Shown here: positions 42,136-55,903 of the stretch, piece after piece
How positions within the stretch are numbered: position 1 is the stretch's first letter
How the letters are laid out: every line of letters starts with the position of its first letter
IMG/VR virus record: IMGVR_UViG_3300012533_000005
Length of the DNA: 64,000 nucleotides
Direction: 5' to 3' (one strand)
Source: a virus
Taxonomy: Duplodnaviria > Heunggongvirae > Uroviricota > Caudoviricetes
Notes under the pieces: model-generated
What the model was told of the DNA's origin: nothing
What the model saw: the letters and a program-made list of their open reading frames with translations, nothing else
Database searches by the model: none
Program-made: the position numbers and the translations under genes

Positions 42136-43414
42136 AAATAAAGGCGGAATATTCAAAGGTGCTTTGCACTCTCAGGGTGGAATACCATTAGTTGTTAATG
42201 GTAGTGGTCAACATATTGAAGTAGAAGGAGATGAAGGACTCATACCTTCTGAGGCTATGAAAGGTGAAAAAATAAAAAAAGTAGAAGGTACTAATGTAGA
42301 AGTTATTCATAAAATAAATAAAGAGGTTGGTGCAAAGGGTTTGAATGAGAAAGCCACAGAAGTCCATGTAGGTGATGCTATAATTTGTCGTAAATCAATG
42401 TATGATAAAAAGAAAAGAACTTATATAGGTACTGATAAACAGATAGTTAGTGCTGTCAATCGAAGTAATGGATGTAAGGTTATTGAAAAAGGAGCAAAAG
42501 CTATCGAGCCTGATGGAAGTGTCGTTCAATACAAAAAAGGTGGCGATGTTTCAGTAATAAATGCACGTTGGGATAAAAAGAAAAAAAGCATTGAAGAACT
42601 TGCGAATAATATTCACCGATTGAGGCTAAATCTTACCCGTAATTTGAATGGTGATGATGAAAAAGATTTTTTAACCGCACTTGTTATTTCAGTTATGATG
42701 AAAACAGGTGAGCGTGTAGGTAATGATGATAGTGCAAGTAACGGTCACTATGGCATTACAGGGTTCAGAAAGAAACATATTAAAATAAACGGCAGAACAG
42801 TTACCCTAAACTATATGGGAAAGTCGGGTGTAGAGCATGAAAAAGAATTTACCGATAGGATATTATCAGAGCATCTGAAAAGAGCAATAAGAAAATCACC
42901 AAACAACTATATATTCTGTACATCTGATGGCTTTAGAATAAAGGCAGATAGAGTAAATCGTTATCTTGAGGAATATAATATTTCGGCAAAGGCTCTAAGA
43001 GGATTTGCTGCTAATAAATGGATAGTTGATAAGCTAGAAAAAATTGAAATACCCGATACTGAAAAACAAAGAAAAACTGTTTTTAATAAAGTGGCAAGGT
43101 CGGTAGCAGAAAAAATAGGACATGGTGTTCCTACTCTTAAAAAACACTACATGATGCCTGAGTTGGCGGATAATTATATTTTTGATGCTGAAATAGTTGA
43201 TGTTAAGGAGGCGAGTGTATTTGCTTCGGGTGGTGAGTTAGGTACTGAGTCGTTGGAAAAAAGAGTGACAAATAGGCTTAGTGAGGAAAAGAAAATTAGG
43301 GTTAAGGATTTAATTGAAATTATTGGTAGAGAGCCTGAGTATCCAAATGAATATATTGGTGGATTGAAATTACAGAAGTGTTTCCTAATTCCTTTTTATA
43401 GATTAATTAAATAA
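42116..43414 (+). CDS. type IB DNA topoisomerase (poxvirus/bacterial TopIB-like) with N-terminal extension
   Basis: Catalytic pentad with vaccinia-like spacing. R (VMMKTGERVG, compare vaccinia ETMFFIRFG) to K (YMGKSGVEHEKEF, compare KFVGKDKVSHEF) is 36 residues, against 37 in vaccinia. R (KALRGF) to H (IGHGVPT) is 42 residues, then 9 more to Y (TLKKHYM, compare vaccinia SKRAY). GITGFRKKHIKI aligns with vaccinia GLLTLKNKHIEI. Confidence 0.7.
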   Translation: MGKPIIKNKGGIFKGALHSQGGIPLVVNGSGQHIEVEGDEGLIPSEAMKGEKIKKVEGTNVEVIHKINKEVGAKGLNEKATEVHVGDAIICRKSMYDKKKRTYIGTDKQIVSAVNRSNGCKVIEKGAKAIEPDGSVVQYKKGGDVSVINARWDKKKKSIEELANNIHRLRLNLTRNLNGDDEKDFLTALVISVMMKTGERVGNDDSASNGHYGITGFRKKHIKINGRTVTLNYMGKSGVEHEKEFTDRILSEHLKRAIRKSPNNYIFCTSDGFRIKADRVNRYLEEYNISAKALRGFAANKWIVDKLEKIEIPDTEKQRKTVFNKVARSVAEKIGHGVPTLKKHYMMPELADNYIFDAEIVDVKEASVFASGGELGTESLEKRVTNRLSEEKKIRVKDLIEIIGREPEYPNEYIGGLKLQKCFLIPFYRLIK

Positions 43415-43417
43415 TAA

Positions 43418-46400
43418 ATGAAGTTATTAGCACCCAATGGAAAGCCGAGTAATCTTACTCCCGAACAATATCGTTTGGTGAGAACTACTGCTTTCAAATC
43501 TTGGTTTGGTGATTGGGAAAATGACCCCGAAAATTCTTCAAAGGTTGTTGATGAAAATGGTGAGCCTTTGGTTTGTTATCACGGAACTCGCTCTGATTTT
43601 AATGAGTTCAAGAGAACTCGTTTTGGTAAATTAGGTGAAGCTATGTATTTTACATCCATTGAAAAAGATGCTATTAGATATGCTAAAAAATATGATGGAG
43701 TGAGAGTTATTAAAGCTTTTTTAAATTCAAAAAATTTAGCCGAAATAAGCAGTCCTTTTGCTAAAAAAGAGTTACCTGAAACATACGATGGGGTAATGGC
43801 ATCTAAAGGTGTAGTAGGTGGGGAAGAAATTGTTGTATTTGAACCCAATCAAATAAAACTCGCAGACGGAAGCAACACGACATTTGACGGTAGCAACCCT
43901 GATATAAGGTTTGATGATGGTGGTGGTATTGGTATTGATGTGAAAACACCAATTTACACAGCTATATTCATTAATAAAGATGAATTAATTAAAAAATACA
44001 AGCCTGTTCATAAAAATATATTCTACCATCATTCAACTATTGAATTTAAACCTCAAGATGTAACTGATTTTCCAAAAGGTCAGGAAACCAAAGTTGATAT
44101 AACTGGTAGATTAACAACCGATAAGGTTGATGTTTTATTAGTTAATAACCAACTTTCAAAAAAGAAAAACCCTCATATTACATTGTCTACTGCCGAAGGT
44201 GTAAGTCCAATGCAAAGCGATATTGAAATTGAAGAAAATTTGGGAAATATAATTCCATTAAACGACTCTATTAATGGCATTTATGATGTTTTTTATGGTG
44301 ATAATTCTAAAATAACATCTACCGATAATGGTGGCAATCAGGTAACATTGAAGTATATTAAAGATGGAAAAGAATTAGGTTATCTTAATTATATTTATGA
44401 TGATAAAGAACCCCTGTCTGTTGGTTTAGATTTACATCCATTTAACTTCAATAGTGAAATGTATATTGATTTTATTGAGGTTTATGAGGATTATATGGGA
44501 AAAGGTATTGCTAAAAAGCTAATTAATAAAGCTATAAGTGATGCAAATGAATTGGGTGTAGTTGTTGTAACACTTCGTAGGGATAGTGGTTTAGGATGTA
44601 ATTATGGAAGTGAATATGATAATATGCTAAAAAAATTATACTCAAGTCTTGGTTTTACTGAAACTTGGACTGAAAAAGATGCTAAATTAAGTGGTGGAGA
44701 AAAAAATATATGTGCTATGCACTTAAAAGTTTATAATAAATACAATAATGGCGGACAAATGGAAAATGAAATAAACGAACAGGAATTTAATGAAGCCATT
44801 AACACTATGATTGTTTATGGTAAGCAGAATAATCGTAAAGACTTTATTCAGGCAGCAAATTTCATTAGAGATTTTGATTTAGATAATGATGTTTTGATTA
44901 AAGCAAAGTATGAGGAAATAAAAAACCAAACAAAGAGGCTATTTGAAGAACAAAAAAAGTCTATAAGAGAGTCTAAAGAATATAAAGAGTTGCCGTATAA
45001 TGATTACTATCATATCATGAATGATGTGACTTCGTATAGATATATTGAAGTTATTGGTAGAGTACCGAAGGATATTCAAAAAATTAAAAAAGAAACAAAA
45101 GACCTTAAAGGTGCTTATAAAAAAGTTGTAGATGATTATATTCGTAGCATAGAGTTATTTGTTCCGATTGCTATAAAAGTTGAAAAGTTAAAAAATAAAA
45201 TTGTAAAGAAATTGCCATTGACACCTGAACAAAAGGAAGATAAGGCTATGAAAGAATTGAGAGAAAGTATTTATGAATCCATGCCAACAATAAATAAGGA
45301 AGTCCTTAGTAAAATGGTTGAGGAAATTAAAGAAACATTTAAGCCACTTGAAAAGATAATTTACGAAAGGGAAACGAAAAGATACCATGAGATTATATTA
45401 AAAATAATAAAAGATAACGAGGTTTATGGAAATCGCTTGAGCGATGGATTATTGCCTTTTTATAATGATATATTTGATTACAAAACAGAATCAAGGAAAA
45501 GTGAACCCAAGATAGATTTTACTGGCAATACTTATTATATACAGGAACATTGGCTTATTGATTTAAGCCTAAAAAATAATTGGAAAGAAGTTGTTTCAAA
45601 AGTTGTCTTACAAGAAATTGAAATGCTTAAATATAATATGCTTTATTCAATCGTAAGCAATTTCAGGAAAATAACAGCTCCTATTGAAAAAATAGAACAA
45701 TTAAGATTATATGTAGGTGAAAAAGGATTTGAAGGGGCTTATAAATTTACTTTTAAAAATGGAAGCAGCTTTGTGTTTCAAACACAATCAATATCTGCTG
45801 GTGGTTATAATATACAAAAATACCATTTTAGATATTTAACTCATTTTACTGATATTATTTTATCTGATGGGAAAAAGGCATCTAGTAATATTGATATACA
45901 CAAGTATTTTTCCGTACCCGATGCTGAAATAAATCCTTATACTAAAATAGATGATGCTCCATCACAAATTGAAATAGCTGAAATAATTGTTGATGCTATT
46001 AAAAATGGTGCGACAAGTATTGACCCTAAATCTATAAAAGATATAAAGGTTGATAACGACTGGATGCGTAGAATAATAGTTTCAGTAACATATATGGAAG
46101 ATGGTATTCAGCAAAATCAATATGTGTATTTAGACCTTTTATCATTTAAAAAGAGCCAAACGGCAGCTAAAAAGTTTTTAAAGGATATTGATGCTGAAGT
46201 TTATCAAATTGCTGATTCATCTAAAAATAATGAAGTTGAAAAGCCGTCTGTTGATATAAATGATGATTCAGATAAATTAAAAAACGAATTAATATCAGTA
46301 TTAAAGGCAACCTATAATCTAAAAGACAGAAGTGAAAAAATAGGTCAAAAGTATAGTCAAGCTAATGATGCCTTTAAAGATAAGTTTGGCATTACCTATG

Positions 46401-49063
46401 AAGAATATTTATCAAAAGGCAATAGCTTCTTTGATGGCGGACAAATAGAAACAAAGTATTATCTTTTATTAAAGAATAATAAACCAATATTTAGGACTAA
46501 ATTTTCAGGTTATAATATTGAAACAGAGCAGGATATGTCTGATATGCTGGATAAGTTACAGGATATGGATTATATTTTAAAGCCAGTAACAGAAGATGAA
46601 TACAAAGAATTTAAATACAGCGACATTGATAAGAAGGATTTAGCAGAATTTACTCAAAATTTTAATTATTTTAAAAAAGGCGGGGAGGTTAAGCGAGATG
46701 GGAAGATTGAATTTAGAAGAAACCGATTGCCTAGAAGGGATATTTATGAATTTGCTAAGATGGTAAAGACAAAATACCCTAAAGTTTGGGCAAAAGGCGG
46801 TAATATATTCGGTAATGAGGCATTTAATAGGCTTGATAAGGTCATTAAGCGTGGTTATTGGTTACCAAATGAGGAATGGATGCAGATTAAGTGGCAAAGC
46901 TACATAGCACGACACCATAAGGATTTTAGAATTGAAGGGGTTGTAGCTATGTTAAAATGGATAGCCACTACTGACAAAGGTTGGAGGTATATGAAGAACC
47001 TAATCAACGAAGAAATTAAAAAGCAATACCCTAATGCTGACGATAATTACAAATATGGCGGTGCAGTCGAATTACAAAAAAAAGTTTTACTAGCACCAAA
47101 TGGGAAACCAACAAATTTAACCCCCGAACAATATAAATTAGTTCGCACTCCTGAATTTAAAGCTTGGTTCGGTGATTGGGAAAAATTAGCTAATGTTATT
47201 ATCAAAGATTCTGCAATAGATGAAATTACTTTGCGTAACATTTCAAATGATGTTTCAAAGGTTGTTGATGAAAACGGAGAGCCTGTTGTCTGCTTTCACG
47301 GAAGCAATAATGATTTTAATGAGTTTAGGAGTGATGTAGGTTATTCAACCGACAAGGGATATTATGGAAAGGGATTTTATTTTACATTTAATACAAATGG
47401 AGAGTGGATGAAGTTTATGAAGGGAGAGGCAGGTTATTATGGTTCAATAGTTAAAGAGTTTTTTATTAAATCATTAAACCCTTTTGATATTAGTGAACTG
47501 TCAGAATATAAAGGTATTAAGATTAGTTATGTTGGAACTGAAACGATAGTTTTTTTGAGCAATATTGCCAAGAGATTTCCTGAACTTGCAGATAGTATTT
47601 TTTTAGAAAAGGAAAAGTGGAACGAGAAAGAACAGCTATACGATATAATAGATGTTCCTATTAGCGTATTACCCGAATTAATAAGCAAATATCAAAAGCT
47701 ATTAAAAACATTTATATTTGAAGATGGTAGGGGTAATAAGATGAAGTCGGGATATGTAAAAAGTGAAATAGTAGAATATGATTACACAAGTACTGGTGGT
47801 AAAAAAGGTTCTTATGAAAGACATGATGATTTAGGTGGGCGTTATTCAGAAGGAATAAGTGATACTGAGGTTGAAATTATGTTGATTGTAAGTGCAATAG
47901 AAAAATATGATGGCATTAAGGCAAATTATCATCCCGAAGGATATATGACAAGAAACCCTGAAATTACAAATGCTATAAAAAAGAATCATGATAGTATTAT
48001 GACAACTAAAAGTGGTGATGAAATTGTAGTTTTTGAGCCTACTCAAATAAAATTGGCTGACGGAACAAATACGACGTTTGACAGTATGAATCCTGATATA
48101 AGGTTTTCAAAAGGTGGTGGATTAGAACTTGAATTAGTTGAAACATATTACGTTAAACATGAAAATGGTAATGATTACCTTGCCTTTAATAACGAATTTG
48201 ATGGAGAGCGTAATGTTTTTCGTTTATCTAAAGATTTCGATGTCGAGTTTGGATATACTGATACTGTTGGTGTATTTATGTACACCGAAACATACATGAA
48301 GCGTATAATAGCAGAGTATTTTCGTAAAGTTTCGTTTGTTAAGTTTGGAAATTTATTTAGAAAATATATTGATGATAAATTCTCTCAAGAATATAACTTA
48401 CAAGACCTATCTAAAACATATAAATGGAGCGAGAAAGCTTCATATATAATTGGTGATGGAAGTTACTATATTAATAATCAAAAAAACTTTATTGATTTTT
48501 GTAAAGAAGCAAAAATTAAGATACCGTCATTACCTAATAAAGAAAGTGTAAAATTTGATAATGGTGGTGGAGTAGAAAATAAAAAAATAAGAGATTTTAA
48601 AGAAATAAAAAACTTTAAATACGCCTCTTTAGGTTCACAATATATTGATATGTTGGATGATAATGCTTATGCCCAAGATAAAATTAATTCTAACAGATGG
48701 TTTGATTTAGTTCAAAAAAACAATAAAAAAGGCGGATTAACAGATAAAGAATTTATTGAGCTTAAAGATTTATCTGATAAAGTGGCAAGATATGATGAAG
48801 ATATGGAAAGCGGTGGCGAATTAGGTAAACAATGCCCTGTTGGTACTAAAGTACAGACATTAATATTCTCAAAGGATGATTTTTCAGAGCAAAAGGCTAA
48901 AGATTGGGCAAAGGAACATGGATATAAATATACAGGTGTTGATGAAAAAGAAAATACATACCGAATAAGACAAGCAGACCCTAAAGATTTTGTAAAAGAC
49001 ATATTTAGAACTATCGAATTTAAAAAAGGAATTAAAGCTGTTGTAGCCTGTCCTAAAAATTAA
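43418..49063 (+). CDS. giant polyvalent protein (1881 aa) with two PARP-like H-Y-E ADP-ribosyltransferase (ART) domains, a GNAT acetyltransferase domain and recurrent GG linkers
   Basis: ART copy 1 at nt 43418-43912: VCYHGT...YFTS...GEEIVVFEPNQIKLADG, compare PARP HGS...NEYIVYD. ART copy 2 at 47087-48110: VCFHGS...GDEIVVFEPTQIKLADG. GNAT region about 44350-44700: IEVYEDYMGKGIAKKLINKA...LYSSLGFTE. At least 9 x(D/N/K)GG(G) linkers. Confidence 0.7.
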   Translation: MKLLAPNGKPSNLTPEQYRLVRTTAFKSWFGDWENDPENSSKVVDENGEPLVCYHGTRSDFNEFKRTRFGKLGEAMYFTSIEKDAIRYAKKYDGVRVIKAFLNSKNLAEISSPFAKKELPETYDGVMASKGVVGGEEIVVFEPNQIKLADGSNTTFDGSNPDIRFDDGGGIGIDVKTPIYTAIFINKDELIKKYKPVHKNIFYHHSTIEFKPQDVTDFPKGQETKVDITGRLTTDKVDVLLVNNQLSKKKNPHITLSTAEGVSPMQSDIEIEENLGNIIPLNDSINGIYDVFYGDNSKITSTDNGGNQVTLKYIKDGKELGYLNYIYDDKEPLSVGLDLHPFNFNSEMYIDFIEVYEDYMGKGIAKKLINKAISDANELGVVVVTLRRDSGLGCNYGSEYDNMLKKLYSSLGFTETWTEKDAKLSGGEKNICAMHLKVYNKYNNGGQMENEINEQEFNEAINTMIVYGKQNNRKDFIQAANFIRDFDLDNDVLIKAKYEEIKNQTKRLFEEQKKSIRESKEYKELPYNDYYHIMNDVTSYRYIEVIGRVPKDIQKIKKETKDLKGAYKKVVDDYIRSIELFVPIAIKVEKLKNKIVKKLPLTPEQKEDKAMKELRESIYESMPTINKEVLSKMVEEIKETFKPLEKIIYERETKRYHEIILKIIKDNEVYGNRLSDGLLPFYNDIFDYKTESRKSEPKIDFTGNTYYIQEHWLIDLSLKNNWKEVVSKVVLQEIEMLKYNMLYSIVSNFRKITAPIEKIEQLRLYVGEKGFEGAYKFTFKNGSSFVFQTQSISAGGYNIQKYHFRYLTHFTDIILSDGKKASSNIDIHKYFSVPDAEINPYTKIDDAPSQIEIAEIIVDAIKNGATSIDPKSIKDIKVDNDWMRRIIVSVTYMEDGIQQNQYVYLDLLSFKKSQTAAKKFLKDIDAEVYQIADSSKNNEVEKPSVDINDDSDKLKNELISVLKATYNLKDRSEKIGQKYSQANDAFKDKFGITYEEYLSKGNSFFDGGQIETKYYLLLKNNKPIFRTKFSGYNIETEQDMSDMLDKLQDMDYILKPVTEDEYKEFKYSDIDKKDLAEFTQNFNYFKKGGEVKRDGKIEFRRNRLPRRDIYEFAKMVKTKYPKVWAKGGNIFGNEAFNRLDKVIKRGYWLPNEEWMQIKWQSYIARHHKDFRIEGVVAMLKWIATTDKGWRYMKNLINEEIKKQYPNADDNYKYGGAVELQKKVLLAPNGKPTNLTPEQYKLVRTPEFKAWFGDWEKLANVIIKDSAIDEITLRNISNDVSKVVDENGEPVVCFHGSNNDFNEFRSDVGYSTDKGYYGKGFYFTFNTNGEWMKFMKGEAGYYGSIVKEFFIKSLNPFDISELSEYKGIKISYVGTETIVFLSNIAKRFPELADSIFLEKEKWNEKEQLYDIIDVPISVLPELISKYQKLLKTFIFEDGRGNKMKSGYVKSEIVEYDYTSTGGKKGSYERHDDLGGRYSEGISDTEVEIMLIVSAIEKYDGIKANYHPEGYMTRNPEITNAIKKNHDSIMTTKSGDEIVVFEPTQIKLADGTNTTFDSMNPDIRFSKGGGLELELVETYYVKHENGNDYLAFNNEFDGERNVFRLSKDFDVEFGYTDTVGVFMYTETYMKRIIAEYFRKVSFVKFGNLFRKYIDDKFSQEYNLQDLSKTYKWSEKASYIIGDGSYYINNQKNFIDFCKEAKIKIPSLPNKESVKFDNGGGVENKKIRDFKEIKNFKYASLGSQYIDMLDDNAYAQDKINSNRWFDLVQKNNKKGGLTDKEFIELKDLSDKVARYDEDMESGGELGKQCPVGTKVQTLIFSKDDFSEQKAKDWAKEHGYKYTGVDEKENTYRIRQADPKDFVKDIFRTIEFKKGIKAVVACPKN

Positions 49064-49087
49064 TATTAAAATGGATAGGGATAAAGA

Positions 49088-49477
49088 ATGATAAAAACAC
49101 TATATAATAAAGAATTAGTATATCCAAATAAAGACAACTACTATTTTAGTCATGTTATTCTTAGAAAAATAACCTATGTTTCAGAGATAGAATTGGTTGC
49201 TGGTAAAAATTATCAATTAGAGCTAAATGATGATTTTGGGAACATAGTTAGTGGATTGATTGAACATAAGTATTTAGGAGCTAAAGATAATCTTTTACAA
49301 TTTGAGGAAATTAGTGATGGTAATGTAAAAAGTATATATAAAGGCAATAGGATATACACGTATTATAAATATGATTTTGAAATGGATAATAATAGAGCTG
49401 ATTTATTTAAAATAATTGATGAAAAATTTGGATTAAGGATTCATTCTAGTGGTGAAATTAACTTTGACAGATATTAA
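49088..49477 (+). CDS. small protein of the C-terminal (D/N/S)-G-x-(I/F) family (129 aa)
   Basis: C-terminus ...IHSSGEINFDRY. Confidence 0.5.
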   Translation: MIKTLYNKELVYPNKDNYYFSHVILRKITYVSEIELVAGKNYQLELNDDFGNIVSGLIEHKYLGAKDNLLQFEEISDGNVKSIYKGNRIYTYYKYDFEMDNNRADLFKIIDEKFGLRIHSSGEINFDRY

Positions 49478-49478
49478 A

Positions 49479-49919
49479 ATGAGAAAATATTACATACCAT
49501 ATTTTAATAGTGGTCAATTAATATATCATGGTGATGAAAAAAAAATATCATCATTTATGCACCTGTTTAAATCTATTTATAAACAAAAAAATAAAATACA
49601 CTATTATGATATAGTAGTTGGTAATAGTTATATAGTGGAGCATAATAATGAATTTGAAAAAGCAACATTTAAAGGAGTTTGGTTAGGTAATGGATTTAAT
49701 ATATATACATTTGAACTTCATAGTAATTTAGAAAATATAGAAATTACGGCTACTGAAAAGTCTTTAGAAAGCGTAATGAATAGCAAGGTTTATATTGATT
49801 TGTTTTCAGATTCAGGAAATATAGGTAGTAAAAGATTTATTTTTAGACAGATAGACTCAAGTGCAAAGAGCTTTGAGTTATATATAAATTCTAATGGTAG
49901 CATAGAGGCTGTAAGATAA
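49479..49919 (+). CDS. small protein of the C-terminal NGxI family (about 146 aa; start trimmed)
   Basis: C-terminus ...YINSNGSIEAVR. Confidence 0.5.
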   Translation: MRKYYIPYFNSGQLIYHGDEKKISSFMHLFKSIYKQKNKIHYYDIVVGNSYIVEHNNEFEKATFKGVWLGNGFNIYTFELHSNLENIEITATEKSLESVMNSKVYIDLFSDSGNIGSKRFIFRQIDSSAKSFELYINSNGSIEAVR

Positions 49920-49924
49920 TTGAT

Positions 49925-50311
49925 ATGAAAAAAATAAATTTATTTATAAATAAAAATATCATTTACCATCATAAAAGAACAATGGATGTTAAATATCATG
50001 TATCTCCTGTTGTAACTAAAGATTACTATGCCGCATTGAGTTTTAAAATAGGCGAGTACTATTATTTACAAATTAGAGATAGGGATATTAAATTAAAATA
50101 TAAGTTTGTATCTCTAATTTCTCCTAATACTGGCTCATTTGAAGATGAAAATGGAAATTTATATACTTTTAAATTAATAAGTGATACATATAAATTTTAT
50201 AATAATCCGCCTTTCTTTAACACGGATGATGTTATGGGTAACTTTTTAGTATTTGGTATAGGAAATAAAGGTATTTATATTACATTAAATGGTAATATTG
50301 GTGAAATTTAA
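49925..50311 (+). CDS. small protein of the C-terminal NGxI family (128 aa)
   Basis: C-terminus ...ITLNGNIGEI. Confidence 0.5.
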   Translation: MKKINLFINKNIIYHHKRTMDVKYHVSPVVTKDYYAALSFKIGEYYYLQIRDRDIKLKYKFVSLISPNTGSFEDENGNLYTFKLISDTYKFYNNPPFFNTDDVMGNFLVFGIGNKGIYITLNGNIGEI

Positions 50312-50322
50312 TATGAATAAAA

Positions 50323-50574
50323 ATGAGTAGTAGAAAAAATCATATATCTAGCTTTAGTAATTCGAGTATTAAATTTAGTAATTATAGTCTAAGGTTTCCT
50401 CCGTCACATAGTCCTAAGACCAAATTTTGGAAAAAGGCTATTATTGTAGGTCGTTCAATGTTTGGCGTTTGGTTTGTGTCAAAAGAAGATACTTTGCAGG
50501 TATCTAAATTGGTTATTCATGGCGGTAATTCCTTTAAAATGTATGATGATGGTACTTTTTCAATAAATAAATAA
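50323..50574 (+). CDS. small protein of the C-terminal DGxF family (83 aa)
   Basis: C-terminus ...MYDDGTFSINK. Confidence 0.5.
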   Translation: MSSRKNHISSFSNSSIKFSNYSLRFPPSHSPKTKFWKKAIIVGRSMFGVWFVSKEDTLQVSKLVIHGGNSFKMYDDGTFSINK

Positions 50575-50581
50575 TATTAAA

Positions 50582-50827
50582 ATGGATAGAGAAAGCTATA
50601 TATTAGATTTATACAAGGATATTTTAACATTTGCTCCATTGAAACGTGATGGGCTAAAAATGAGTCCTTCTTTTTTTATTTATAAGGGTATGCTTACTAA
50701 ATACATTTTAATAGGAAAAGACTACAATAGGACTAATCAATTACATTTTACAACAAGACAGCAACCGAACACGAAAAGGGGTGAAACGGTTCATCTTATG
50801 GATGATGGGCAGATTTTGAGATATTAA
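50582..50827 (+). CDS. small protein of the C-terminal DGxI family (81 aa)
   Basis: C-terminus ...LMDDGQILRY. Confidence 0.5.
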   Translation: MDRESYILDLYKDILTFAPLKRDGLKMSPSFFIYKGMLTKYILIGKDYNRTNQLHFTTRQQPNTKRGETVHLMDDGQILRY

Positions 50828-50937
50828 GGCATTAATTACGTGGTTATTAATAAATTACTGCTAATAACTTGTTTGAAAAATACTAATAATAATAAGTATT
50901 TTAGTAGAAATTTTGATTAAATCAGTTTGATTAAATA

Positions 50938-51147
50938 ATGGCTGTAAAAAATTATATAAGTTTTTTTGAAAAAAATAATACACAATACATTGATTTTAAC
51001 ATAGGTAAGATTACCGCTTATGGCAAAGACCACGAATATTTTGAACTTACTGGATTTAGTAATATTAAGATTAGTAATGATAGAATAATTTTTAATGGTA
51101 AAAGATTAGTAACTATTAATGATAAAGGCGTAATAAGAGCAATTTAA
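50938..51147 (+). CDS. small protein of the C-terminal (K/D)GxI family (69 aa)
   Basis: C-terminus ...INDKGVIRAI. Also an internal IIFNGKRLVTI. Confidence 0.5.
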   Translation: MAVKNYISFFEKNNTQYIDFNIGKITAYGKDHEYFELTGFSNIKISNDRIIFNGKRLVTINDKGVIRAI

Positions 51148-51148
51148 A

Positions 51149-54100
51149 ATGGAATTAACACTACAAGACACAATAGCAAGTAAAAAGAAGCTTATAGGTA
51201 TGTATTTACCTATTCAAATAGCTATTTATGTACCAAGCACAAAGGATGCAAACGTACCTATATCAAAAGAAGAACTGCAAGGTAGGGTTGATGAAGTCCG
51301 TAAGTATTTAGCAAGTATGTTCGGTGGTTTCTCGTCTGAAGGAATGACTGGTGGCTATGTTTCTACATTCAAAGAATTAATCAAAGAAGATGTTGTTAGA
51401 GTTGTTGCTTTTTCTACAAAAGAGGCTTATGAAGATAATAAGAGAAGATTGATTACTCAAATATCAAAGTGGGCAAAGGAATGGTCGCAAGAGGCTATTG
51501 GAGTTGAATTTGAAAATGATTTGTATTATATCAATCAAGCTGAATCCTTTAAGGATGGTGGAAAAGTTGAACGTGAAGAAAGTAATTATCTTCAAGGATA
51601 TAATTTCAAGGATTACGAAGATATGATAGAAACCTTGAAAAAGGCAAAGAAAGAGAAATACGACTTAGGTGATGCTATTGATAGTCCCGAATCCCTTAAA
51701 TCAGCTATGGATAGTGCTGTGAAATTAGCAGAAAATATTAGAGATGAATATAGATATAACAACGATGGAGATAAAGTACTTGTTGTTAACGTAAAGACTT
51801 ATACGAGTGTTAGTGAAGATAAATCAATAGATTTAGCAAAGGAAGCTTTTAACCTAAATGAAGAACAAGTAGAACAATTACGAGAAGAATTTAATAGTGA
51901 GCGTGTAAATGATATAGTAAATGACTATATGGATTTACAACGTGAGGATGCAGAAGAAACTTTAAAGGATTTTATAAATCTTGAAATATGCAAAGATGAA
52001 GTTTTATTTGGTGGAAGAAGTGGCGGATATTTAATATTTCAGGAATATGACTTTTTTGATGGTAAAATAGAGCTTTTAGAGGATTATATATACACAAATT
52101 TTAATAGTATTGGTGAGTTTGAGTCAAATAGTTATGGTTCTTTTGAGCAATTCATTCAGGAGAATTTTAATGAGATTAGAGAAACTATTGGATTGATTAA
52201 CTATTATGAATTTGCTTTCGGTGTATTTGAGTCTTATGTAAAAATGTTAGTTAAGGGGACAGGTGAATATGCACAGGAAGAACTTGATTATCATGTTGAC
52301 CAATATATTGAAGAAAATATTAAAACAAAGCCTAAAAAGAAAAAAATGAAAAAAGTATCTGAAGAAACTATGGAAATGGGTGGTACTATTGATAGTGAAA
52401 GAAGATTTACCGAAGCTGATTTTAACAAGTTAGTTGATAGTAGTGATTTAAAGGGAAAATGGAATGGTTTTCTTTGGGAAATAATTAAGAAAGATGGTGG
52501 CGGTTATGTATATGGTAAGTTTAACCCGAAGTCAAAAGTTTTATTCATTACCCGTGAAAAAGACTTGACAAATCCATTAGTGCTTTGGTTACAACAAAAT
52601 TCAAAGGTTTCATTTGAGGAGTATCAAAAGCTAGGTAGTGGAGGTAATATTACTAAAAATTGGGATGAATTTGGTACTGGTGGAAGTATTGACGATGAAT
52701 TAAAAAACTTCGATATAAATAACTTAGATGCTTTTGAGCGTAAACAATACGACCATCTTATAAAACAAAGTTCAAAAGAAGAAGTATTACAAATACTAAT
52801 TAATAGTGTTGAAAGTGATTACTCTCAATTAAGCCCTGAACTTGCAGAAATAGCTGAAAAACAGAACCCTACTGGGTATAATAATGGCGGTTTAATTATT
52901 GATGAAAATTGGGGTAACGACGGCTCAACACCAAGTAATAATAAAGATTATAACGCTCTATATGAAATGTTTCCTGATAATCATGCAGAAGCAAAGGCTA
53001 TATGGAATCAATTAAGTGAAAAACAAAAAGAAGGATTTATTTATGACCTAGAGGTTACGGATGCAGCTAGTGAACATATCGCAGAGTCATGGTTAGAATT
53101 TATTAACGCATCATCACAGGAAGATTATTGGGAAAATGCAACTAATTGGGATGAAATGAAAGATGGCGGTGGAGTTGGTGAAGTAATAACCGATGTTGAT
53201 ATAGATTATTCTAAGGTACATGGAATTAAGGCTATTAAAATAAAACAAGGTAAAAATGGTGGTCATTCGGCTTTGTTTTCTTATTATACTGAAGAACCAA
53301 AGAGAGAAAAATGGGAAAAAATATCAAAATTTCAATATAATTCTTGGATGAAACAAGTAAAAAATAAGTTAGCTAATGGCGGTGGAGTTGGTGAAAGTAA
53401 ATACAAAAACGAAGATTTATTATCACAAAAAATATTTAGAATAGAGTATTTTAATTGGCTATCATCTTGGGAGCAATTTCATTTAATAAATAAATATAAT
53501 TTAGATGAAAATATTAGAACTAAATTTGATAATGGCGGTGGGGTTAGTGAGCAAAAGAATATAGCAAGGCAATTAGAAATAGTAAGATTATCGTCTATGA
53601 GTTTAGATGAACTCTTAGAAGAAGCAGGAATGACTTTAAGAGAATTTAAAGAATATCACTTAACAAGAGAAGCTTTAATAAAGGATTTGTCAGAGCCTAA
53701 CTTTTCTAATGGCGGTAAAATTAATAGTAAAAACCTAATTAAAGAACTTAAAAAAGGGTTGGTTGTTAGATTCCAAAGAGATACAATTAAGGGAGCAAGG
53801 TGGGAAACTAATTTAGATTATAAAGATGGTAAAATAATGTTTTGGCGTAGCTACTTCAACAATGAAATGGAAGAAGTTGCTGATAAAAAGAAAGAGTATG
53901 AAATGACAGAAAAACAAGCCATTGATTTATATAACAAAGATAAAGAATATATTATTGAGGAGTATTATGTGAGTGGTAATGTTGCTTTAGAGCCTTTAAA
54001 TGAAGATAAATACATATATGAAGTAGTTAAAGATGCTACCGAGCATTTAACTAATGAAAGTAAACATGATACTCAGGAAAAGTATAATAACTCTGATAAA

Positions 54101-55903
54101 TATAATTACACAGAATTTTGCGATAAGTGTGGAAGGGGTATAAAAGGAGAACCTGCATTTTTTATACACATGGTTGCTCCCGATTACGTTGTTCCTAATG
54201 ATAAAGAAAATGATAAATTAATAGAGGAATATTCTATTAAAGGAGTTGTTGAAGATTTAGGATGGCATCCAATAGGTTCTGAGTGTGTTAAGGCTTATCC
54301 AAAAAAATACCACTACCCAACAACAGCTCATGGTACAGTTTTTGTTAATGATGATAATGATTCAGATGATTCTAAAGTGAAAAAATTAGTAGTTAAGTTT
54401 GAAAAAGAAAAAGAATCAATAGCACTTTATGTAATAGCTGACTTAGTTTCAGAGCATTTCATGCGTAAAGATTATGATAAGAATATTGTTTGGGATAAAT
54501 TAACTGACGAGCAAAAAGTCAAATACAATGAGGATTATAAAGTATCTAAAAATGATTTTGAAAAACATATAGTATATGAGTTTGTTAAGCTTTATTATTC
54601 TAGTAAGAAAATAAAGGAAAGATGTAAAGGTCAATCAAAACAAACAATAGAAAGTATTAAATCTGTTATGTATGATATTGCTAAAGAATATGATACAGAT
54701 AAGTTCCCGAAAGTTTCTAAAGTTGAAAGGTCTGTTTCTGATGAAGAAAAGCCAAAGCAAGAAGTAGCTAAAGAAATTAGAACAGCTCCTATTAAGGATG
54801 TTTCAGATGAATTAATTAATCAGGCTATAACAGAAGTACTATTATTACCTAAATATAAATACCTTGATAAAGATGAAGCTGATTTCTTATACATGGCATT
54901 TGCAAACTATGAGAATCAAAAGAATAATTATGGTGATTATGTTTATGAAATTAAATGGAGGTATGAATACGGAAGTAATGATGATAAGGCTAAAGAACAT
55001 GATGAAAAGCTAAAGAAATTTATTGAGGGTATGGATAAGGCTAATATTATCATGTTTAGTAATTATGATGGTACTATTGAGGCTGATAAAGCGGTTATTG
55101 ATTTCATTAATTCAGTAAGGGGTAGGGTATATACTCTTAAAAACAAGTCAGTAAGTACGGATTTGTTCCCTGAAACAGATATTACACCTAAATTGACTGC
55201 CGTAGAGAGTAAAAGGACTGTGTTAATGACTATATTAAATTTATACACAAAGACTACCGATAAAGAAAAAAAGGAAAAGTTATGGGCAAAAGTACAGGAA
55301 ATAAAACAACAAATAAAAGGCATGGAAAATCAGGAGTTTAAGCATGGTGGAGATGTTAAAATGACAAAATCCGATATGCTAAAAAAGCTCCATTCTTTAA
55401 GCAAACATAAAAACTCAAAAACAATAAGCGACAAGTATGAAAAATTAAATGCTGAATACAAGTCTAAAACAGGTGTTGATTTTGAGGGTGTTTTAAAGGG
55501 CGGTAAAGCGGATGGTATGGATGAAGCATCTTTAGCTAAGAAACATGGCGTAAGTGTTGCTGCAATAAGAAAACAGCTAGAAAAAGGTATTCAGGTTGAG
55601 AGAGAGCATATTGATAATCCTGCTATACAAAGAGAGATTGCCTTAGACCATATTGAAGAATTTGTTGATTATTACGACAGACTTGAAAAAATGGAAAGAC
55701 AGGCTAGTGTTAAGCATACCGTAAAAGCAATTAAAGGACTATCAAAATCTCAGATTAACTCAATAAGTAATTATATGAAAAAGAAAGGGTTTGATAACTC
55801 TGATTTTGATGTTTATGATAACGGAATGATTTTAATTTACAAAGATGTTGATAGTAAGGTTTATAAAGAGATTTCAATGTTCATTAAAAATAATGTAATT
55901 TAA
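51149..55903 (+). CDS. second giant polyvalent-type protein (1584 aa) with at least 11 x(D/N/K)GG(G) linkers and a Cys4 zinc-ribbon segment
   Basis: Linkers FKDGGKVE, MEMGGTID, YNNGGLII, KDGGGVGEV, ANGGGVGES, DNGGGVSEQ, SNGGKINS, KHGGDVKM and KGGKADG. Zinc ribbon CDKCGRG...GSECVKAY. C-terminus ...YDNGMILIYKDV. Confidence 0.7.
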   Translation: MELTLQDTIASKKKLIGMYLPIQIAIYVPSTKDANVPISKEELQGRVDEVRKYLASMFGGFSSEGMTGGYVSTFKELIKEDVVRVVAFSTKEAYEDNKRRLITQISKWAKEWSQEAIGVEFENDLYYINQAESFKDGGKVEREESNYLQGYNFKDYEDMIETLKKAKKEKYDLGDAIDSPESLKSAMDSAVKLAENIRDEYRYNNDGDKVLVVNVKTYTSVSEDKSIDLAKEAFNLNEEQVEQLREEFNSERVNDIVNDYMDLQREDAEETLKDFINLEICKDEVLFGGRSGGYLIFQEYDFFDGKIELLEDYIYTNFNSIGEFESNSYGSFEQFIQENFNEIRETIGLINYYEFAFGVFESYVKMLVKGTGEYAQEELDYHVDQYIEENIKTKPKKKKMKKVSEETMEMGGTIDSERRFTEADFNKLVDSSDLKGKWNGFLWEIIKKDGGGYVYGKFNPKSKVLFITREKDLTNPLVLWLQQNSKVSFEEYQKLGSGGNITKNWDEFGTGGSIDDELKNFDINNLDAFERKQYDHLIKQSSKEEVLQILINSVESDYSQLSPELAEIAEKQNPTGYNNGGLIIDENWGNDGSTPSNNKDYNALYEMFPDNHAEAKAIWNQLSEKQKEGFIYDLEVTDAASEHIAESWLEFINASSQEDYWENATNWDEMKDGGGVGEVITDVDIDYSKVHGIKAIKIKQGKNGGHSALFSYYTEEPKREKWEKISKFQYNSWMKQVKNKLANGGGVGESKYKNEDLLSQKIFRIEYFNWLSSWEQFHLINKYNLDENIRTKFDNGGGVSEQKNIARQLEIVRLSSMSLDELLEEAGMTLREFKEYHLTREALIKDLSEPNFSNGGKINSKNLIKELKKGLVVRFQRDTIKGARWETNLDYKDGKIMFWRSYFNNEMEEVADKKKEYEMTEKQAIDLYNKDKEYIIEEYYVSGNVALEPLNEDKYIYEVVKDATEHLTNESKHDTQEKYNNSDKYNYTEFCDKCGRGIKGEPAFFIHMVAPDYVVPNDKENDKLIEEYSIKGVVEDLGWHPIGSECVKAYPKKYHYPTTAHGTVFVNDDNDSDDSKVKKLVVKFEKEKESIALYVIADLVSEHFMRKDYDKNIVWDKLTDEQKVKYNEDYKVSKNDFEKHIVYEFVKLYYSSKKIKERCKGQSKQTIESIKSVMYDIAKEYDTDKFPKVSKVERSVSDEEKPKQEVAKEIRTAPIKDVSDELINQAITEVLLLPKYKYLDKDEADFLYMAFANYENQKNNYGDYVYEIKWRYEYGSNDDKAKEHDEKLKKFIEGMDKANIIMFSNYDGTIEADKAVIDFINSVRGRVYTLKNKSVSTDLFPETDITPKLTAVESKRTVLMTILNLYTKTTDKEKKEKLWAKVQEIKQQIKGMENQEFKHGGDVKMTKSDMLKKLHSLSKHKNSKTISDKYEKLNAEYKSKTGVDFEGVLKGGKADGMDEASLAKKHGVSVAAIRKQLEKGIQVEREHIDNPAIQREIALDHIEEFVDYYDRLEKMERQASVKHTVKAIKGLSKSQINSISNYMKKKGFDNSDFDVYDNGMILIYKDVDSKVYKEISMFIKNNVI

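What the first reader, a model, noticed from the sequence alone, without database searches (positions are those of the whole stretch)
43418..55903. Recurrent GG linker motif punctuates both giant proteins at module boundaries, with a conserved ATGGCGG at DNA level
**Protein level.** The motif is x-(D/N/K)-G-G-(G)-hydrophobic-x-(E/S). Occurrences in the first giant protein include:
- FDDGGGIGIDVK, about 43906-43945
- NNGGQMENE, about 44747
- FDGGQIETK, about 46434
- KKGGEVKRDG, about 46672
- KYGGAVELQKK, about 47051
- SKGGGLELELV, about 48101
- DNGGGVENKK, about 48551
- KKGGLTDKE, about 48725
- ESGGELGKQ, about 48806

Occurrences in the second giant protein sit at about 51547, 52371, 52881, 53158, 53381, 53524, 53702, 55336 and 55493. 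The TopIB gene also carries two: KKGGDVSV, and ASGGELGTESLEKR at about 43223.

**Module boundary.** The duplicated N-terminal module restarts immediately after one of these motifs (KYGGAVELQKK|VLLAPNGKPTNLTPEQYKLVRT). That sequence reproduces the protein's own N-terminus (MKLLAPNGKPSNLTPEQYRLVRT). A cut there would regenerate an identical N-terminus.

**DNA level.** The Gly-Gly is repeatedly encoded by (A/G)ATGGCGG, using GGC in a GC-poor genome. Two 20-nt stretches are identical: atggcggtggagttggtgaa at about 53160 and about 53388.

This points to proteolytic maturation sites, autoprocessing sites or module-shuffling recombination sites of polyvalent proteins.
Basis: partly seen in the sequence, partly recalled or inferred. 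Interest (0 to 1): 0.8.

Follow-up and report, generated by a model that had tools for sequence, protein, structure and literature searches.

The report
Gly-Gly junction motif joining phage effector modules
Two giant phage proteins are strings of unrelated small modules joined by one fixed seven-residue connector centred on Gly-Gly; the connector recurs in hundreds of related metagenomic proteins, marks where modules are swapped between genomes, and may be a cutting site, though cutting is untested.

Summary
The Gly-Gly sites are the core of a fixed heptad, [F/Y/M]-x-x-G-G-x-[V/I/L/T]. It occurs 9 times in giant A and 8 times in giant B, against 0.3 and 0.2 expected. It occurs twice in the adjacent TopIB gene and almost nowhere else in the window.

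Both giants are polyvalent proteins; A carries ART-PolyVal twice. In 286 related metagenomic giants the heptad is 25-50 times over-represented. It sits at homology breakpoints and flanks one tracked module at 95% of internal edges. It is mostly absent when that module ends a protein. A related genome has swapped B's central cassettes, with breakpoints on GG codons.

Four cultured-phage ART-PolyVal giants lack the heptad, and so does a third, DarB-like giant of this same genome. It is therefore lineage- and class-specific, not generic linker chemistry.

The DNA-level ATGGCGG is mostly the peptide motif plus a genome-wide codon-pair bias. One identical 20-mer pair flanking a cassette does suggest junction-level exchange.

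Module boundary and shuffling are shown. Proteolytic cleavage is plausible (about 45%) but untested, and no cognate protease was found. I found no prior description in the papers searched.

The parts
43418..49063 (+). Giant polyvalent protein A (1881 aa): ART-PolyVal, unknown module, GNAT, a large unknown block, small modules, a second ART-PolyVal, and three to four small C-terminal modules.
   Evidence: Pfam ART-PolyVal at 108 bits against a cut-off of 31.2, plus GNAT. Module limits come from homolog alignments.
51149..55903 (+). Giant polyvalent protein B (1584 aa): a conserved N-terminal block (aa 1-511), a variable cassette array (aa 512-1067), and a conserved C-terminal block containing DUF5661.
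42116..43414 (+). TopIB gene. It is a three-module protein with two heptad junctions, and the TopIB module is fused into giants in relatives.
   Evidence: Pfam Topoisom_I. TopIB forms the N-terminal part of the 2196-2607 aa proteins P0027, P0031 and P0130 and lies internally (aa 1129-1392) in P0093.
42530..42550 (+). Junction heptad YKKGGDV, between the N-terminal domain and the TopIB core.
   Evidence: In the AF2 model of aa 1-145 the pLDDT falls below 50 at 143-145.
43220..43240 (+). Junction heptad FASGGEL, after the TopIB core.
   Evidence: Homolog alignments end at aa 365-376.
43910..43930 (+). Junction heptad FDDGGGI, at the end of ART copy 1 (NPDIRFDDGGG).
44741..44761 (+). Junction heptad YNNGGQM, at the end of the GNAT module.
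   Evidence: The P0108 alignment starts at aa 445.
46427..46447 (+). Junction heptad FFDGGQI.
   Evidence: The P0114 alignment covers aa 1004-1089 exactly.
46670..46690 (+). Junction heptad FKKGGEV.
   Evidence: Nine alignments start at aa 1085-1095.
47048..47068 (+). Junction heptad YKYGGAV, just before the restart of the ART module.
48104..48124 (+). Junction heptad FSKGGGL, at the end of ART copy 2 (NPDIRFSKGGG).
48554..48574 (+). Junction heptad FDNGGGV.
   Evidence: No homolog covers this boundary.
48803..48823 (+). Junction heptad MESGGEL, before the C-terminal module shared with P0005.
   Evidence: The P0005 alignment starts at aa 1804.
48722..48742 (+). Looser junction NKKGGLT, with no aromatic residue at -3.
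   Evidence: The P0034 and P0035 alignments start at aa 1773.
51548..51568 (+). Junction heptad FKDGGKV, at the end of B module 1.
   Evidence: Conserved in all orthologs and at 105 of 109 internal edges.
52370..52390 (+). Junction heptad MEMGGTI. Nucleotide homology with L001 resumes here.
52631..52651 (+). Looser junction LGSGGNI.
   Evidence: Conserved in L001 and in P0002-P0004.
52670..52690 (+). Junction heptad FGTGGSI. Nucleotide homology with L001 ends on these GG codons.
52682..54351 (+). Variable cassette array (B aa 512-1067): six Gly-Gly-delimited cassettes of 52 to about 212 aa. In L001 it is replaced by a different, shorter set.
52877..52897 (+). Junction heptad YNNGGLI.
53156..53176 (+). 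Junction heptad MKDGGGV. It overlaps the left copy of the identical 20-mer (53163-53182).
53369..53389 (+). Junction LANGGGV. It overlaps the right copy of the identical 20-mer (53376-53395). Together the two 20-mers bracket a 71-aa cassette.
53525..53545 (+). Junction heptad FDNGGGV. This is a third copy of the 20-mer, with 3 mismatches.
53702..53722 (+). Junction heptad FSNGGKI.
55337..55357 (+). Junction heptad FKHGGDV.
   Evidence: Conserved in P0001-P0005.
55490..55510 (+). Looser junction VLKGGKA, immediately before DUF5661.
61798..63246 (+). Candidate zincin-like protein (invariant QHEIGH) with three SH3/Tudor/KOW-like barrels. Its link to the junctions is unproven.

Best explanation
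**What is shown.** The Gly-Gly sites are the core of a self-contained seven-residue junction, [F/Y/M]-[A/E/K]-[K/D/N]-G-G-x-[V/I/L/T].
- The junction joins unrelated, independently folding effector modules into giant polyvalent proteins in one lineage of uncultured phages.
- It sits at module boundaries and is kept by purifying selection in orthologs.
- It is present only where two modules meet.
- It is the point at which modules and cassettes are exchanged between proteins and genomes.

**What is inferred.** The junction is a short linear recognition motif. It is most likely the cleavage site of a dedicated endopeptidase, phage- or host-encoded. That enzyme would cut the string into individual effectors in the capsid or after delivery, as in a viral polyprotein. 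A single standard junction also means that any in-frame recombinant between two junctions stays functional. That would explain the rampant module shuffling.

**Confidence.** About 0.95 for the descriptive part. About 0.45 for cleavage as the function.
For: **Fixed register and strong position-specific constraints** (1895 strict sites).
- Position -3 was selected as F/Y/M/W.
- Position -2 is Ala at 7x, with no hydrophobic residues.
- Position -1 is D, K or N.
- Position +2 is V, I, T or M at 3-5x, with charged and polar residues at 0.2x or less.
- Pro is excluded from -4 to +2 but enriched just outside.
- This footprint resembles a peptide bound in a groove, not a floppy linker.

**Independent of the flanking fold.**
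- The heptad lies between unrelated modules.
- A variable spacer separates it from the module cores. The distance from GG to YVPST ranges from 17 to 36 residues, with peaks at 18 and 23.

**Junction-specific.**
- A ends in ACPKN*, whereas the same module in P0005 continues ACPIVNKFDNGG.
- When B's module 1 is C-terminal, the protein usually ends in GDLMYVPQEL* with no motif.

**Conserved.** Orthologs at about 50% identity keep the heptad while the surrounding linker residues vary.

**Over-represented.** 968 heptads against 36 in shuffles, 202 against 4, and 767 against 26, in the three homolog sets.

**Lineage- and class-specific.**
- Absent from the ART-PolyVal giants of cr85_1, BF1-TP2, PalP_Y7 and SbaS_Y11.
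- Absent from the DarB-like third giant of the same genome.

**Exchange at junctions.** See the L001 breakpoints and the identical 20-mers bracketing a cassette.

**Precedent.**
- Iyer et al. 2017 argued that polyvalent proteins need processing into functional units (PMC5512222).
- From my own knowledge: Gly-Gly-X cleavage of polyproteins is established for ASFV pp220/pp62, adenain, coronavirus PLpro and polyubiquitin.
Against: - There is no proteomic or biochemical evidence of cleavage.
- No peptidase domain or HExxH motif occurs in A, B or TopIB.
- No peptidase family recurs next to distant heptad-rich giants.
- The HExxH ORF is restricted to close relatives.
- The hydrophobic residue is at P5, not at P4 as for adenain or PLpro, so no known Gly-Gly protease specificity fits.
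- Some proteins carry a heptad followed by only 5-17 residues, where cleavage would release nothing useful.
- One heptad-like match lies inside a conserved module (A1124).
- N4 virion RNAP and several plasmid polyvalent proteins act uncleaved (PMC5512222).
Confidence: 0.45

Rival explanations
1. The heptad is an uncleaved structural hinge or connector. It is a short standard linker that lets neighbouring modules fold and move independently, for example during unfolding and refolding on ejection through the tail. The proteins act as intact beads on a string.
For: - Gly-Gly is the classic flexible dipeptide.
- pLDDT collapses at the TopIB junction.
- Known polyvalent proteins such as N4 vRNAP, ArdC and TraC1 function unprocessed (PMC5512222).
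- No protease was found.
Against: - A hinge does not explain the fixed seven-residue register.
- It does not explain the near-obligatory large hydrophobic residue at -3 and beta-branched residue at +2.
- It does not explain the Ala preference at -2 or the exclusion of Pro from -4 to +2.
- Variable spacers separate the heptad from both flanking folds.
- Other polyvalent giants, including one in the same genome, manage without the motif.
Confidence: 0.25
2. The heptad is a repeated binding motif rather than a cleavage site. Multiple copies would dock the giant protein onto a common partner, such as the capsid interior, portal, scaffold or a chaperone, for packaging or delivery.
For: - The position-specific footprint is the same as for the cleavage model.
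- There are many copies per protein (up to 17), which would give avidity.
- Heptads followed by only a short C-terminal tail make more sense as binding motifs than as cut sites.
Against: - Strict placement at module boundaries is not required for a binding motif.
- No partner has been identified.
- The DarB-like giant of the same genome lacks the motif.
Confidence: 0.12
3. The primary function is at the DNA level. The junction (ATGGCGG and its neighbours) would be a recombination signal or microhomology island that promotes in-frame cassette exchange. The peptide conservation would then be a by-product.
For: - Breakpoints with L001 lie on GG codons.
- A 71-aa cassette is bracketed by identical 20-mers. 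The chance of this, given the same peptide, is about 0.004.
- The junctions are GC-rich islands in a 30% GC genome.
Against: - Conservation is by residue class (F/Y/M; A/E/K; K/D/N), not by nucleotide. Only GGNGG is constant.
- Orthologous junctions differ at synonymous positions.
- The GGC preference is a genome-wide codon-pair effect.
- Half of the ATGGCGG copies lie outside the giants.
- Selection alone would place surviving breakpoints in linkers.
Confidence: 0.08
4. The motif is a chance or compositional effect of Gly-rich linkers in large proteins.
For: None beyond a slight general Gly-Gly excess in the window (66 against 52).
Against: - No shuffle in 5000 reaches the observed heptad count.
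- Enrichment is 25-50 fold in three independent homolog sets.
- Other homodipeptides are not enriched.
- Five large control proteins lack the motif.
Confidence: 0.01

Closest known systems
Polyvalent proteins of phages and conjugative elements (Iyer, Burroughs, Anand, de Souza, Aravind 2017; PMC5512222)
   Same: - Giant polypeptides that combine many unrelated effector domains.
- The hallmark ART-PolyVal domain is present.
- Extensive domain mosaicism.
- The authors predicted a need for processing into functional units.
   Different: - The paper proposes an in-protein zincin (MPTase) as the processor. A and B have none.
- The full text contains no occurrence of 'linker', 'glycine', 'boundar' or 'shuffl', and the only 'gly' hits are in 'glycosidic' and 'glycosylation'.
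- Four cultured-phage ART-PolyVal giants lack the heptad.
Viral polyproteins and precursors cleaved at Gly-Gly-X: ASFV pp220/pp62 by pS273R, adenovirus precursors by adenain, coronavirus PLpro (LXGG), polyubiquitin (cited from my own knowledge; PMC10308890 surfaced)
   Same: Multi-unit polypeptides of large viruses with a recurring Gly-Gly site at unit boundaries.
   Different: - The hydrophobic residue is at P5 rather than P4.
- A beta-branched residue is required at P2'.
- No clan CE or papain-like protease was detected.
- Cleavage has not been demonstrated.
Demarcation motifs of polymorphic toxins (CdiA VENN, Rhs PxxxxDPxGL; cited from my own knowledge)
   Same: A short conserved peptide marks the border between exchangeable modules, and recombination breakpoints map to it. 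In Rhs it is also an autoproteolysis site.
   Different: - Those systems have one motif per protein, separating a constant region from one variable toxin, with an immunity gene.
- Here there are up to about 17 junctions per protein, between any pair of modules.
- No immunity genes are present.
T4 Alt and internal proteins processed by the prohead protease gp21 at (L/I)xE; phiKZ-like inner-body proteins cut at (S/A/G)xE (cited from my own knowledge)
   Same: Capsid-packaged, injected effectors (Alt is an ART) that carry short consensus cleavage motifs.
   Different: - The motif is different.
- Position +3 after the Gly-Gly shows no acidic preference across the family.
- Those sites remove targeting peptides rather than separating many modules.
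Double-glycine leader peptides cleaved by C39 peptidase domains
   Same: Gly-Gly with upstream hydrophobic positions.
   Different: Those are single N-terminal leaders with the hydrophobic residue at -4 from the cut. They need an ABC transporter with a C39 domain, and none was seen here.

Membership tests
Polyvalent proteins (Iyer et al. 2017) | Many unrelated domains (2-15 or more) in one polypeptide. | tested here: met
   - A: ART-PolyVal twice, GNAT, and at least 7 further homology-delimited modules.
- B: at least 10 modules, including DUF5661.
Polyvalent proteins (Iyer et al. 2017) | A hallmark effector domain such as ART-PolyVal (PF18760) above the curated threshold. | tested here: met
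   108.4 bits against a cut-off of 31.2, in three stretches. B has no hallmark enzymatic domain, only DUF5661.
Polyvalent proteins (Iyer et al. 2017) | Encoded by a phage or conjugative element. | tested here: inconclusive
   - PHROG-only hits.
- Almost all genes on one strand, and no cellular marker genes.
- Syntenic uncultured contigs of 40-92 kb, and a DarB-like neighbour.
- No capsid, portal or terminase gene lies in the window.
Polyvalent proteins (Iyer et al. 2017) | An in-protein zincin (MPTase) domain for autoprocessing. This is frequent but not obligatory. | tested here: not met
   No peptidase Pfam hit and no HExxH motif in A, B or TopIB.
Polyvalent proteins (Iyer et al. 2017) | Packaged in the virion and delivered into the host. 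| not testable with these tools
   Requires virion proteomics.
Gly-Gly-X polyproteins with a clan CE or papain-like protease (ASFV, adenovirus, PLpro) | A recurring Gly-Gly at unit boundaries. | tested here: met
Gly-Gly-X polyproteins with a clan CE or papain-like protease (ASFV, adenovirus, PLpro) | A hydrophobic residue at P4, as in (M/L/I)XGG or LXGG. | tested here: not met
   FYMW makes up 6% at -2 (P4) and 56% at -3 (P5). P4 is Ala, Glu or Lys.
Gly-Gly-X polyproteins with a clan CE or papain-like protease (ASFV, adenovirus, PLpro) | A cognate cysteine protease encoded by the virus. | tested here: inconclusive
   None appeared among the 25 window ORFs scanned with Pfam, the ORFs scanned with PHROGs, or the neighbours of 5 related loci. 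Only part of the genome is in hand.
Gly-Gly-X polyproteins with a clan CE or papain-like protease (ASFV, adenovirus, PLpro) | Demonstrated cleavage products. | not testable with these tools
   Needs proteomics or in vitro assays.
Double-glycine leader / C39 peptidase systems | A single N-terminal leader ending in Gly-Gly, plus a C39 ABC transporter. | tested here: not met
   The sites are internal and multiple. Only 1 of 140 proteins has a motif within 15 residues of the N-terminus. No C39 hit was found.
Polymorphic-toxin demarcation motifs (VENN, PxxxxDPxGL) | One motif separating a constant region from a variable C-terminal toxin, with a downstream immunity gene. | tested here: not met
   There are 8-9 strict junctions per protein, between arbitrary modules. 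No toxin/immunity pair is evident.
Polymorphic-toxin demarcation motifs (VENN, PxxxxDPxGL) | Recombination breakpoints coincide with the motif. | tested here: met
   Three of the four breakpoints between the window and L001 lie on GG codons.
Generic flexible Gly-rich linker | Variable length, low complexity, and no position-specific flanking residues. | tested here: not met
   The heptad has a fixed register with strong flank preferences and Pro exclusion.

The most novel reading that the evidence does not exclude
These giants are true bacteriophage polyproteins. Each would be a string of up to about 20 small anti-host effectors joined by one standard cleavage heptad. A dedicated, still unidentified endopeptidase would cut them apart in the capsid or in the infected cell. 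The same standard junction would make every module a plug-and-play part that can be recombined in frame across a large pool of uncultured phages.
Probability: 0.4. Interest if true: 0.8.

Novelty: new variant of a known kind. Interest (0 to 1): 0.6.

Why it matters
**An open question becomes testable.** Polyvalent proteins are thought to be the first weapons a phage or plasmid delivers into a cell. How one giant chain serves many targets is unresolved. The 2017 proposal, self-cleavage by an embedded zincin, does not apply to proteins like these. A stereotyped junction gives that question exact, testable coordinates: 17 strict sites in this window and about 1,900 in the relatives collected here.

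**A parsing rule for giant ORFs.** Splitting at the heptads delimits effector-sized units. Many are 50-130 residues long with no known family. These can be screened for anti-defence activity.

**An evolutionary model.** The junction explains how this lineage shuffles effectors so freely.

**If cleavage is confirmed.** To my knowledge, a large family of multi-effector polyproteins in tailed phages has not been described. The protease would be a new handle on early infection.

Tried and rejected
1. **Nucleotide search of the 12.5-kb region against 50,697 phage records.** No match. Protein searches hit only the ART-PolyVal and DUF5661 domains.
2. **Scan of viral contigs for relatives of B.** Nothing confirmed.
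3. **ATGGCGG as an independent DNA signal.** Rejected. Half the copies lie outside the giants, and the GGC preference is a genome-wide codon-pair bias.
4. **A prohead-protease-like xxE site after the Gly-Gly.** This looked plausible in the window (QME, QIE, AVE, KVE, VGE). Position +3 carries almost no information across the family (0.09 bits), so it was rejected.
5. **The HExxH ORF as the universal processor.**
   - It is limited to 12 clusters and absent near distant giants.
   - Verdict: neither supported nor excluded for this phage.
7. **Population variants L004-L006.** They are essentially identical to the window, so they give no cassette polymorphism.
8. **PDB sequence search with A and B.** No hits.
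9. **Literature searches** for polyvalent linkers, phage polyproteins, ART-PolyVal, and literal motif strings such as YAKGG and MAKGG. Nothing relevant.
10. **Structure prediction across a junction with a paired alignment.** No collinear two-module homologs were available. The afdb50 library was unavailable.

Full report
**1. What is in the window**

The region holds three adjacent + strand genes that belong together.
- A TopIB gene at 42116-43414 (432 aa).
- Giant A at 43418-49063 (1881 aa).
- Giant B at 51149-55903 (1584 aa), after three small ORFs.

The window is 30% GC, and almost all ORFs are on one strand. Pfam finds the following.
- In A: ART-PolyVal (PF18760) in three stretches (108 bits, cut-off 31.2), plus a GNAT domain.
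- In B: DUF5661.
- In the upstream gene: Topoisom_I.

A is therefore a polyvalent protein in the sense of Iyer et al. 2017 (PMC5512222). B has the same multi-module build but no hallmark enzymatic domain. There is no nucleotide match in 50,697 phage records. Protein-level matches there are limited to the ART and DUF5661 domains. Near-identical contigs of 40-92 kb occur in several metagenomes.

Yes.

Gly-Gly counts:
- A: 19 observed against 7.7 expected (3 of 20,000 shuffles reach this).
- B: 21 against 5.3 (0 of 20,000).
- The other 109 ORFs: 66 against 52.

It is a fixed heptad, [FYMW]-x-x-G-G-x-[IVLTM].
- A has 9 copies against 0.3 expected, and B has 8 against 0.19. No shuffle in 5000 reaches these counts.
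- The remaining 16.5 k residues of the window hold 4 copies, two of them in the TopIB gene.

The internal duplication is also real. A aa 1-167 and about 1222-1565 are two ART-PolyVal copies (77-86% nt identity in blocks). They end in NPDIRFDDGGG and NPDIRFSKGGG. The second copy restarts eight residues after KYGG.

**3. The same heptad in relatives**

I collected three sets of relatives.
- 21 homologs of B.
- 119 homologs of A, the best of 3038 hits.
- 146 representatives of B's N-terminal module, out of 925 hits in a 1.8-billion-protein library.

In the 140 A and B homologs, Gly-Gly is 2.03 times expected, while other homodipeptides are at 0.6-1.0. The strict heptad counts are 968 against 36 in shuffles, 202 against 4, and 767 against 26. 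Of the 119 A homologs, 118 carry at least three copies.

The register is fixed.
- For GG runs, FYMW makes up 56% at -3 (background 13%) and no more than 10% at every other upstream position.
- IVLT makes up 61% at +2 (background 24%).
- In GGG runs the third Gly occupies +1, or the first occupies -1.

A matrix of 1895 strict sites shows further constraints.
- -4: Arg or Lys.
- -2: Ala at 7x, with essentially no hydrophobic residues.
- -1: Asp, Lys or Asn.
- +2: Val, Ile, Thr or Met, with charged and polar residues at 0.2x or less.
- Pro is excluded from -4 to +2 and enriched just outside.
- Beyond about five residues on either side the composition returns to background. The exception is the NPDIR tail contributed by ART modules.

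**4. The heptad marks module boundaries**

In an all-against-all BLASTP of 142 giants, internal alignment starts and ends lie within five residues of a Gly-Gly in 36% and 41% of cases. Random positions give 9%.

For A, alignments with single shared modules begin or end at aa 445, 1004-1089, 1085-1207, 1206-1578, 1773 and 1804. These are the listed Gly-Gly sites.

B's first module (aa 1-137, also a PHROG of about 125-residue proteins) occurs at every position in proteins of 138-2197 residues.
- 118 of 124 internal upstream edges carry a hydrophobic-x-x-G-G match.
- 105 of 109 internal downstream edges carry one.
- When the module is last in the protein, the chain usually ends in ...GDLMYVPQEL* without the motif.

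Likewise A ends in ...VVACPKN*, but the same module at the start of P0005 continues ...VVACPIVNKFDNGG, followed by B's second module.

The heptad is separated from the module cores by spacers of variable length. The distance from GG to YVPST ranges from 17 to 36 residues, with peaks at 18 and 23. It is therefore not the cap of either neighbouring fold. Orthologs at about 50% identity keep the heptad while neighbouring linker residues change.

**5. Exchange at the junctions**

L001 is a contig binned as a Micavibrio MAG. It is syntenic with the window from B to the window end, at 72-80% nt identity.

Inside B the nucleotide homology breaks into blocks: 51145-52287, 52372-52683 and 54352 onward. 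B's central array is six Gly-Gly-delimited cassettes, aa 512-1067. In L001 it is replaced by a shorter, unrelated set.

Three of the four breakpoints lie on a junction.
- Homology resumes at GAAATGGGTGG (EMGG).
- Homology ends on the GGTGGA of FGTGG.
- In L001 homology resumes at ADGG.

P0002-P0004 share B's N- and C-terminal blocks but carry other central cassettes. TopIB, a separate gene here, is part of larger giants in relatives: N-terminal in P0027, P0031 and P0130, and internal in P0093. In P0027 and P0031 it is followed by FYKKGG, and in P0130 by FYSKGG.

**6. The DNA-level claim**

ATGGCGG occurs 16 times against 1.6 in dinucleotide shuffles. Eight copies are outside the giants, and all but one of the 13 copies I could assign to an ORF read x-AT GGC GG in frame.

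GGC as the first codon of a Gly-Gly pair is favoured throughout the window, and GGA is disfavoured there.
- Rest of the window: 12/60 against 66/776 for single Gly (p = 0.009).
- Giants: 13/33 against 8/140.
- Giants against the rest: p = 0.05.

The heptamer is therefore the peptide motif seen through AT-rich codon usage and a codon-pair bias.

Aligned junctions share only about 20-25 nt. Conservation at -3 to -1 is by residue class, not by codon.

One feature does point to DNA-level events. The identical 20-mers at 53163 and 53376 bracket one 71-residue cassette whose neighbours are unrelated. Given identical peptides, the chance of full codon identity is about 0.004. L001's first cassette junction also looks like a hybrid of two window junctions.

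**7. Specificity controls**

These ART-PolyVal giants of cultured or assembled phages show no Gly-Gly excess and almost no heptads.
- crAss-like cr85_1: 2518 aa, 6 GG against 12 expected.
- Bacteroides phage BF1-TP2: 3633 aa, 23 against 19.8.
- Pseudoalteromonas phage Y7: more than 4384 aa, 21 against 25.7.
- Shewanella phage Y11: 3372 aa, 18 against 20.1.

A third giant of this same genome lies just beyond the window end. It is 2392 aa, with DarB-like and methyltransferase PHROG hits. It has 6 GG against 4.7 expected and no strict heptad. The motif is therefore not a general property of large proteins, of this genome's composition, or of polyvalent proteins as a class. More distant heptad-rich phages carry several such giants side by side.

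**8. How it most likely works**

*Shown:* a standard junction at module boundaries, under purifying selection, specific to junctions, and used as the exchange point.

*Inferred:* it is a recognised short linear motif. Three features are what a peptide bound in an extended conformation in a groove would show.
- The fixed register.
- The alternation of buried-type and exposed-type positions.
- The exclusion of Pro.

Stereotyped junctions between heterogeneous units are, in known biology, usually cleavage sites. Examples, from my own knowledge, are viral polyproteins, polyubiquitin and neuropeptide precursors. Iyer et al. argued that polyvalent proteins must be processed because their domains have different targets. 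I therefore rank proteolytic release first, at about 0.45.

The scissile bond cannot be inferred. Cleavage after Gly-Gly, after the aromatic residue, or before the +2 hydrophobic residue are all compatible with known protease classes.

Against cleavage:
- There is no peptidase domain in A, B or TopIB.
- No peptidase recurs in neighbourhoods.
- No known Gly-Gly protease has a hydrophobic P5 preference.

The HExxH ORF at 61798-63246 remains a candidate for this phage only, and nothing links it to the junctions.
- It has an invariant QHEIGH...D motif in 11 homologs.
- Its modelled N-domain layout, three strands followed by the helix that carries HExxH, looks zincin-like to me.
- It is confined to 12 close clusters.

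Rivals are an uncleaved hinge (0.25), a multivalent binding motif (0.12), and a primarily DNA-level recombination signal (0.08).

**9. Comparison with what is known, and novelty**

A is a member of the polyvalent-protein class; the domain test is met. B shares the architecture without a hallmark domain. The junction heptad is not mentioned in the founding paper: there are no occurrences of linker, glycine, boundary or shuffling. It is not mentioned in the 2022 follow-up or in any paper found by four further searches. The library does not cover all journals.

Functionally the heptad resembles the Gly-Gly-X sites of ASFV or adenovirus polyproteins and the demarcation motifs of polymorphic toxins. 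It fails the defining features of each: the P4 hydrophobic residue, a cognate protease, or a single motif with an immunity gene. I rate it a new variant of a known kind.

**10. Verdict**

Interest is 0.6. The feature is strong, widespread and apparently undescribed, and it makes the long-standing processing question for polyvalent proteins directly testable. Its function is still inferred.

Noticed in passing
window 42116-42550 (TopIB aa 1-145): - This roughly 140-residue domain has an invariant Gly-x-x-His and a Glu-x-Glu-Gly-x-Glu motif.
- It recurs in at least 39 of 140 heptad-rich giants, often at the extreme N- or C-terminus.
- The AF2 model is confident (pLDDT 89.8), but no fold match was found.
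- It could be a virion-anchoring or delivery domain.
   Followed up: partly
window 61798-63246: A 482-residue protein with an invariant QHEIGH...D motif and a Pro-rich linker. It has a weakly zincin-like N-terminal domain followed by three SH3/Tudor/KOW-like barrels. It is conserved in synteny in L001 and found in only 12 protein clusters.
   Followed up: partly
L004 12391-19569 (just downstream of the window end, same genome): A third giant protein (2392 aa) with DarB-like antirestriction and DNA-methyltransferase PHROG matches. It lacks the Gly-Gly junctions entirely. It is followed by a 620-residue ORF with no family match.
   Followed up: partly
window 49055-49081 and 50566-50592: A repeated gene-start context, AATATTAAAATGGATAG(G/A)GA, precedes two small ORFs between the giants. 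It may be a shared translation-start or promoter-proximal element.
   Followed up: no
window 59036-59605: An ORF with a 13-residue low-complexity repeat (KDDxGxEDGGxxP, three copies). These Gly-Gly pairs are not junction heptads.
   Followed up: no
L001 1306-1851 and 1853-5437: The B ortholog in the related genome is split by a frameshift in a Lys-rich, A-rich stretch (...TLTKSKRKV*), not at a junction. This is probably an assembly error, or else a real frameshift. L005 and L006 also show one or two single-base gaps relative to the window.
   Followed up: no
whole window (codon usage): There is a genome-wide codon-pair bias at Gly-Gly. GGA and GGG are avoided and GGC is favoured as the first codon when the next codon starts with GG (GGA 11% against about 33%; GGC 25% against about 9%). 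One possible reason is avoidance of GGAGG-like or G-run sequences.
   Followed up: partly
relatives P0063, P0070, P0109, P0123, P0134, P0140 and others: Tiny Cys-rich segments (such as SSCGCSGKKYKYGG and CGCKHSMAEGG) sit between consecutive junctions. They may be zinc-knuckle mini-modules.
   Followed up: no
window 55490-55700 and relatives: DUF5661 always begins directly after a junction (LKGGKADGMDE here). In several T4-like cyanophages and a Vibrio phage it aligns to short stretches (55-65 codons) inside genes annotated as hypothetical or DUF2213 proteins.
   Followed up: no
L009, L010, L011: More distant phages carry clusters of two to four heptad-rich giants side by side. In L009 the cluster is near lysis genes (Peptidase_M15_3, GH108). 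ArdA, Zeta-toxin and Eco57I-like methylase domains occur in neighbouring giants.
   Followed up: partly
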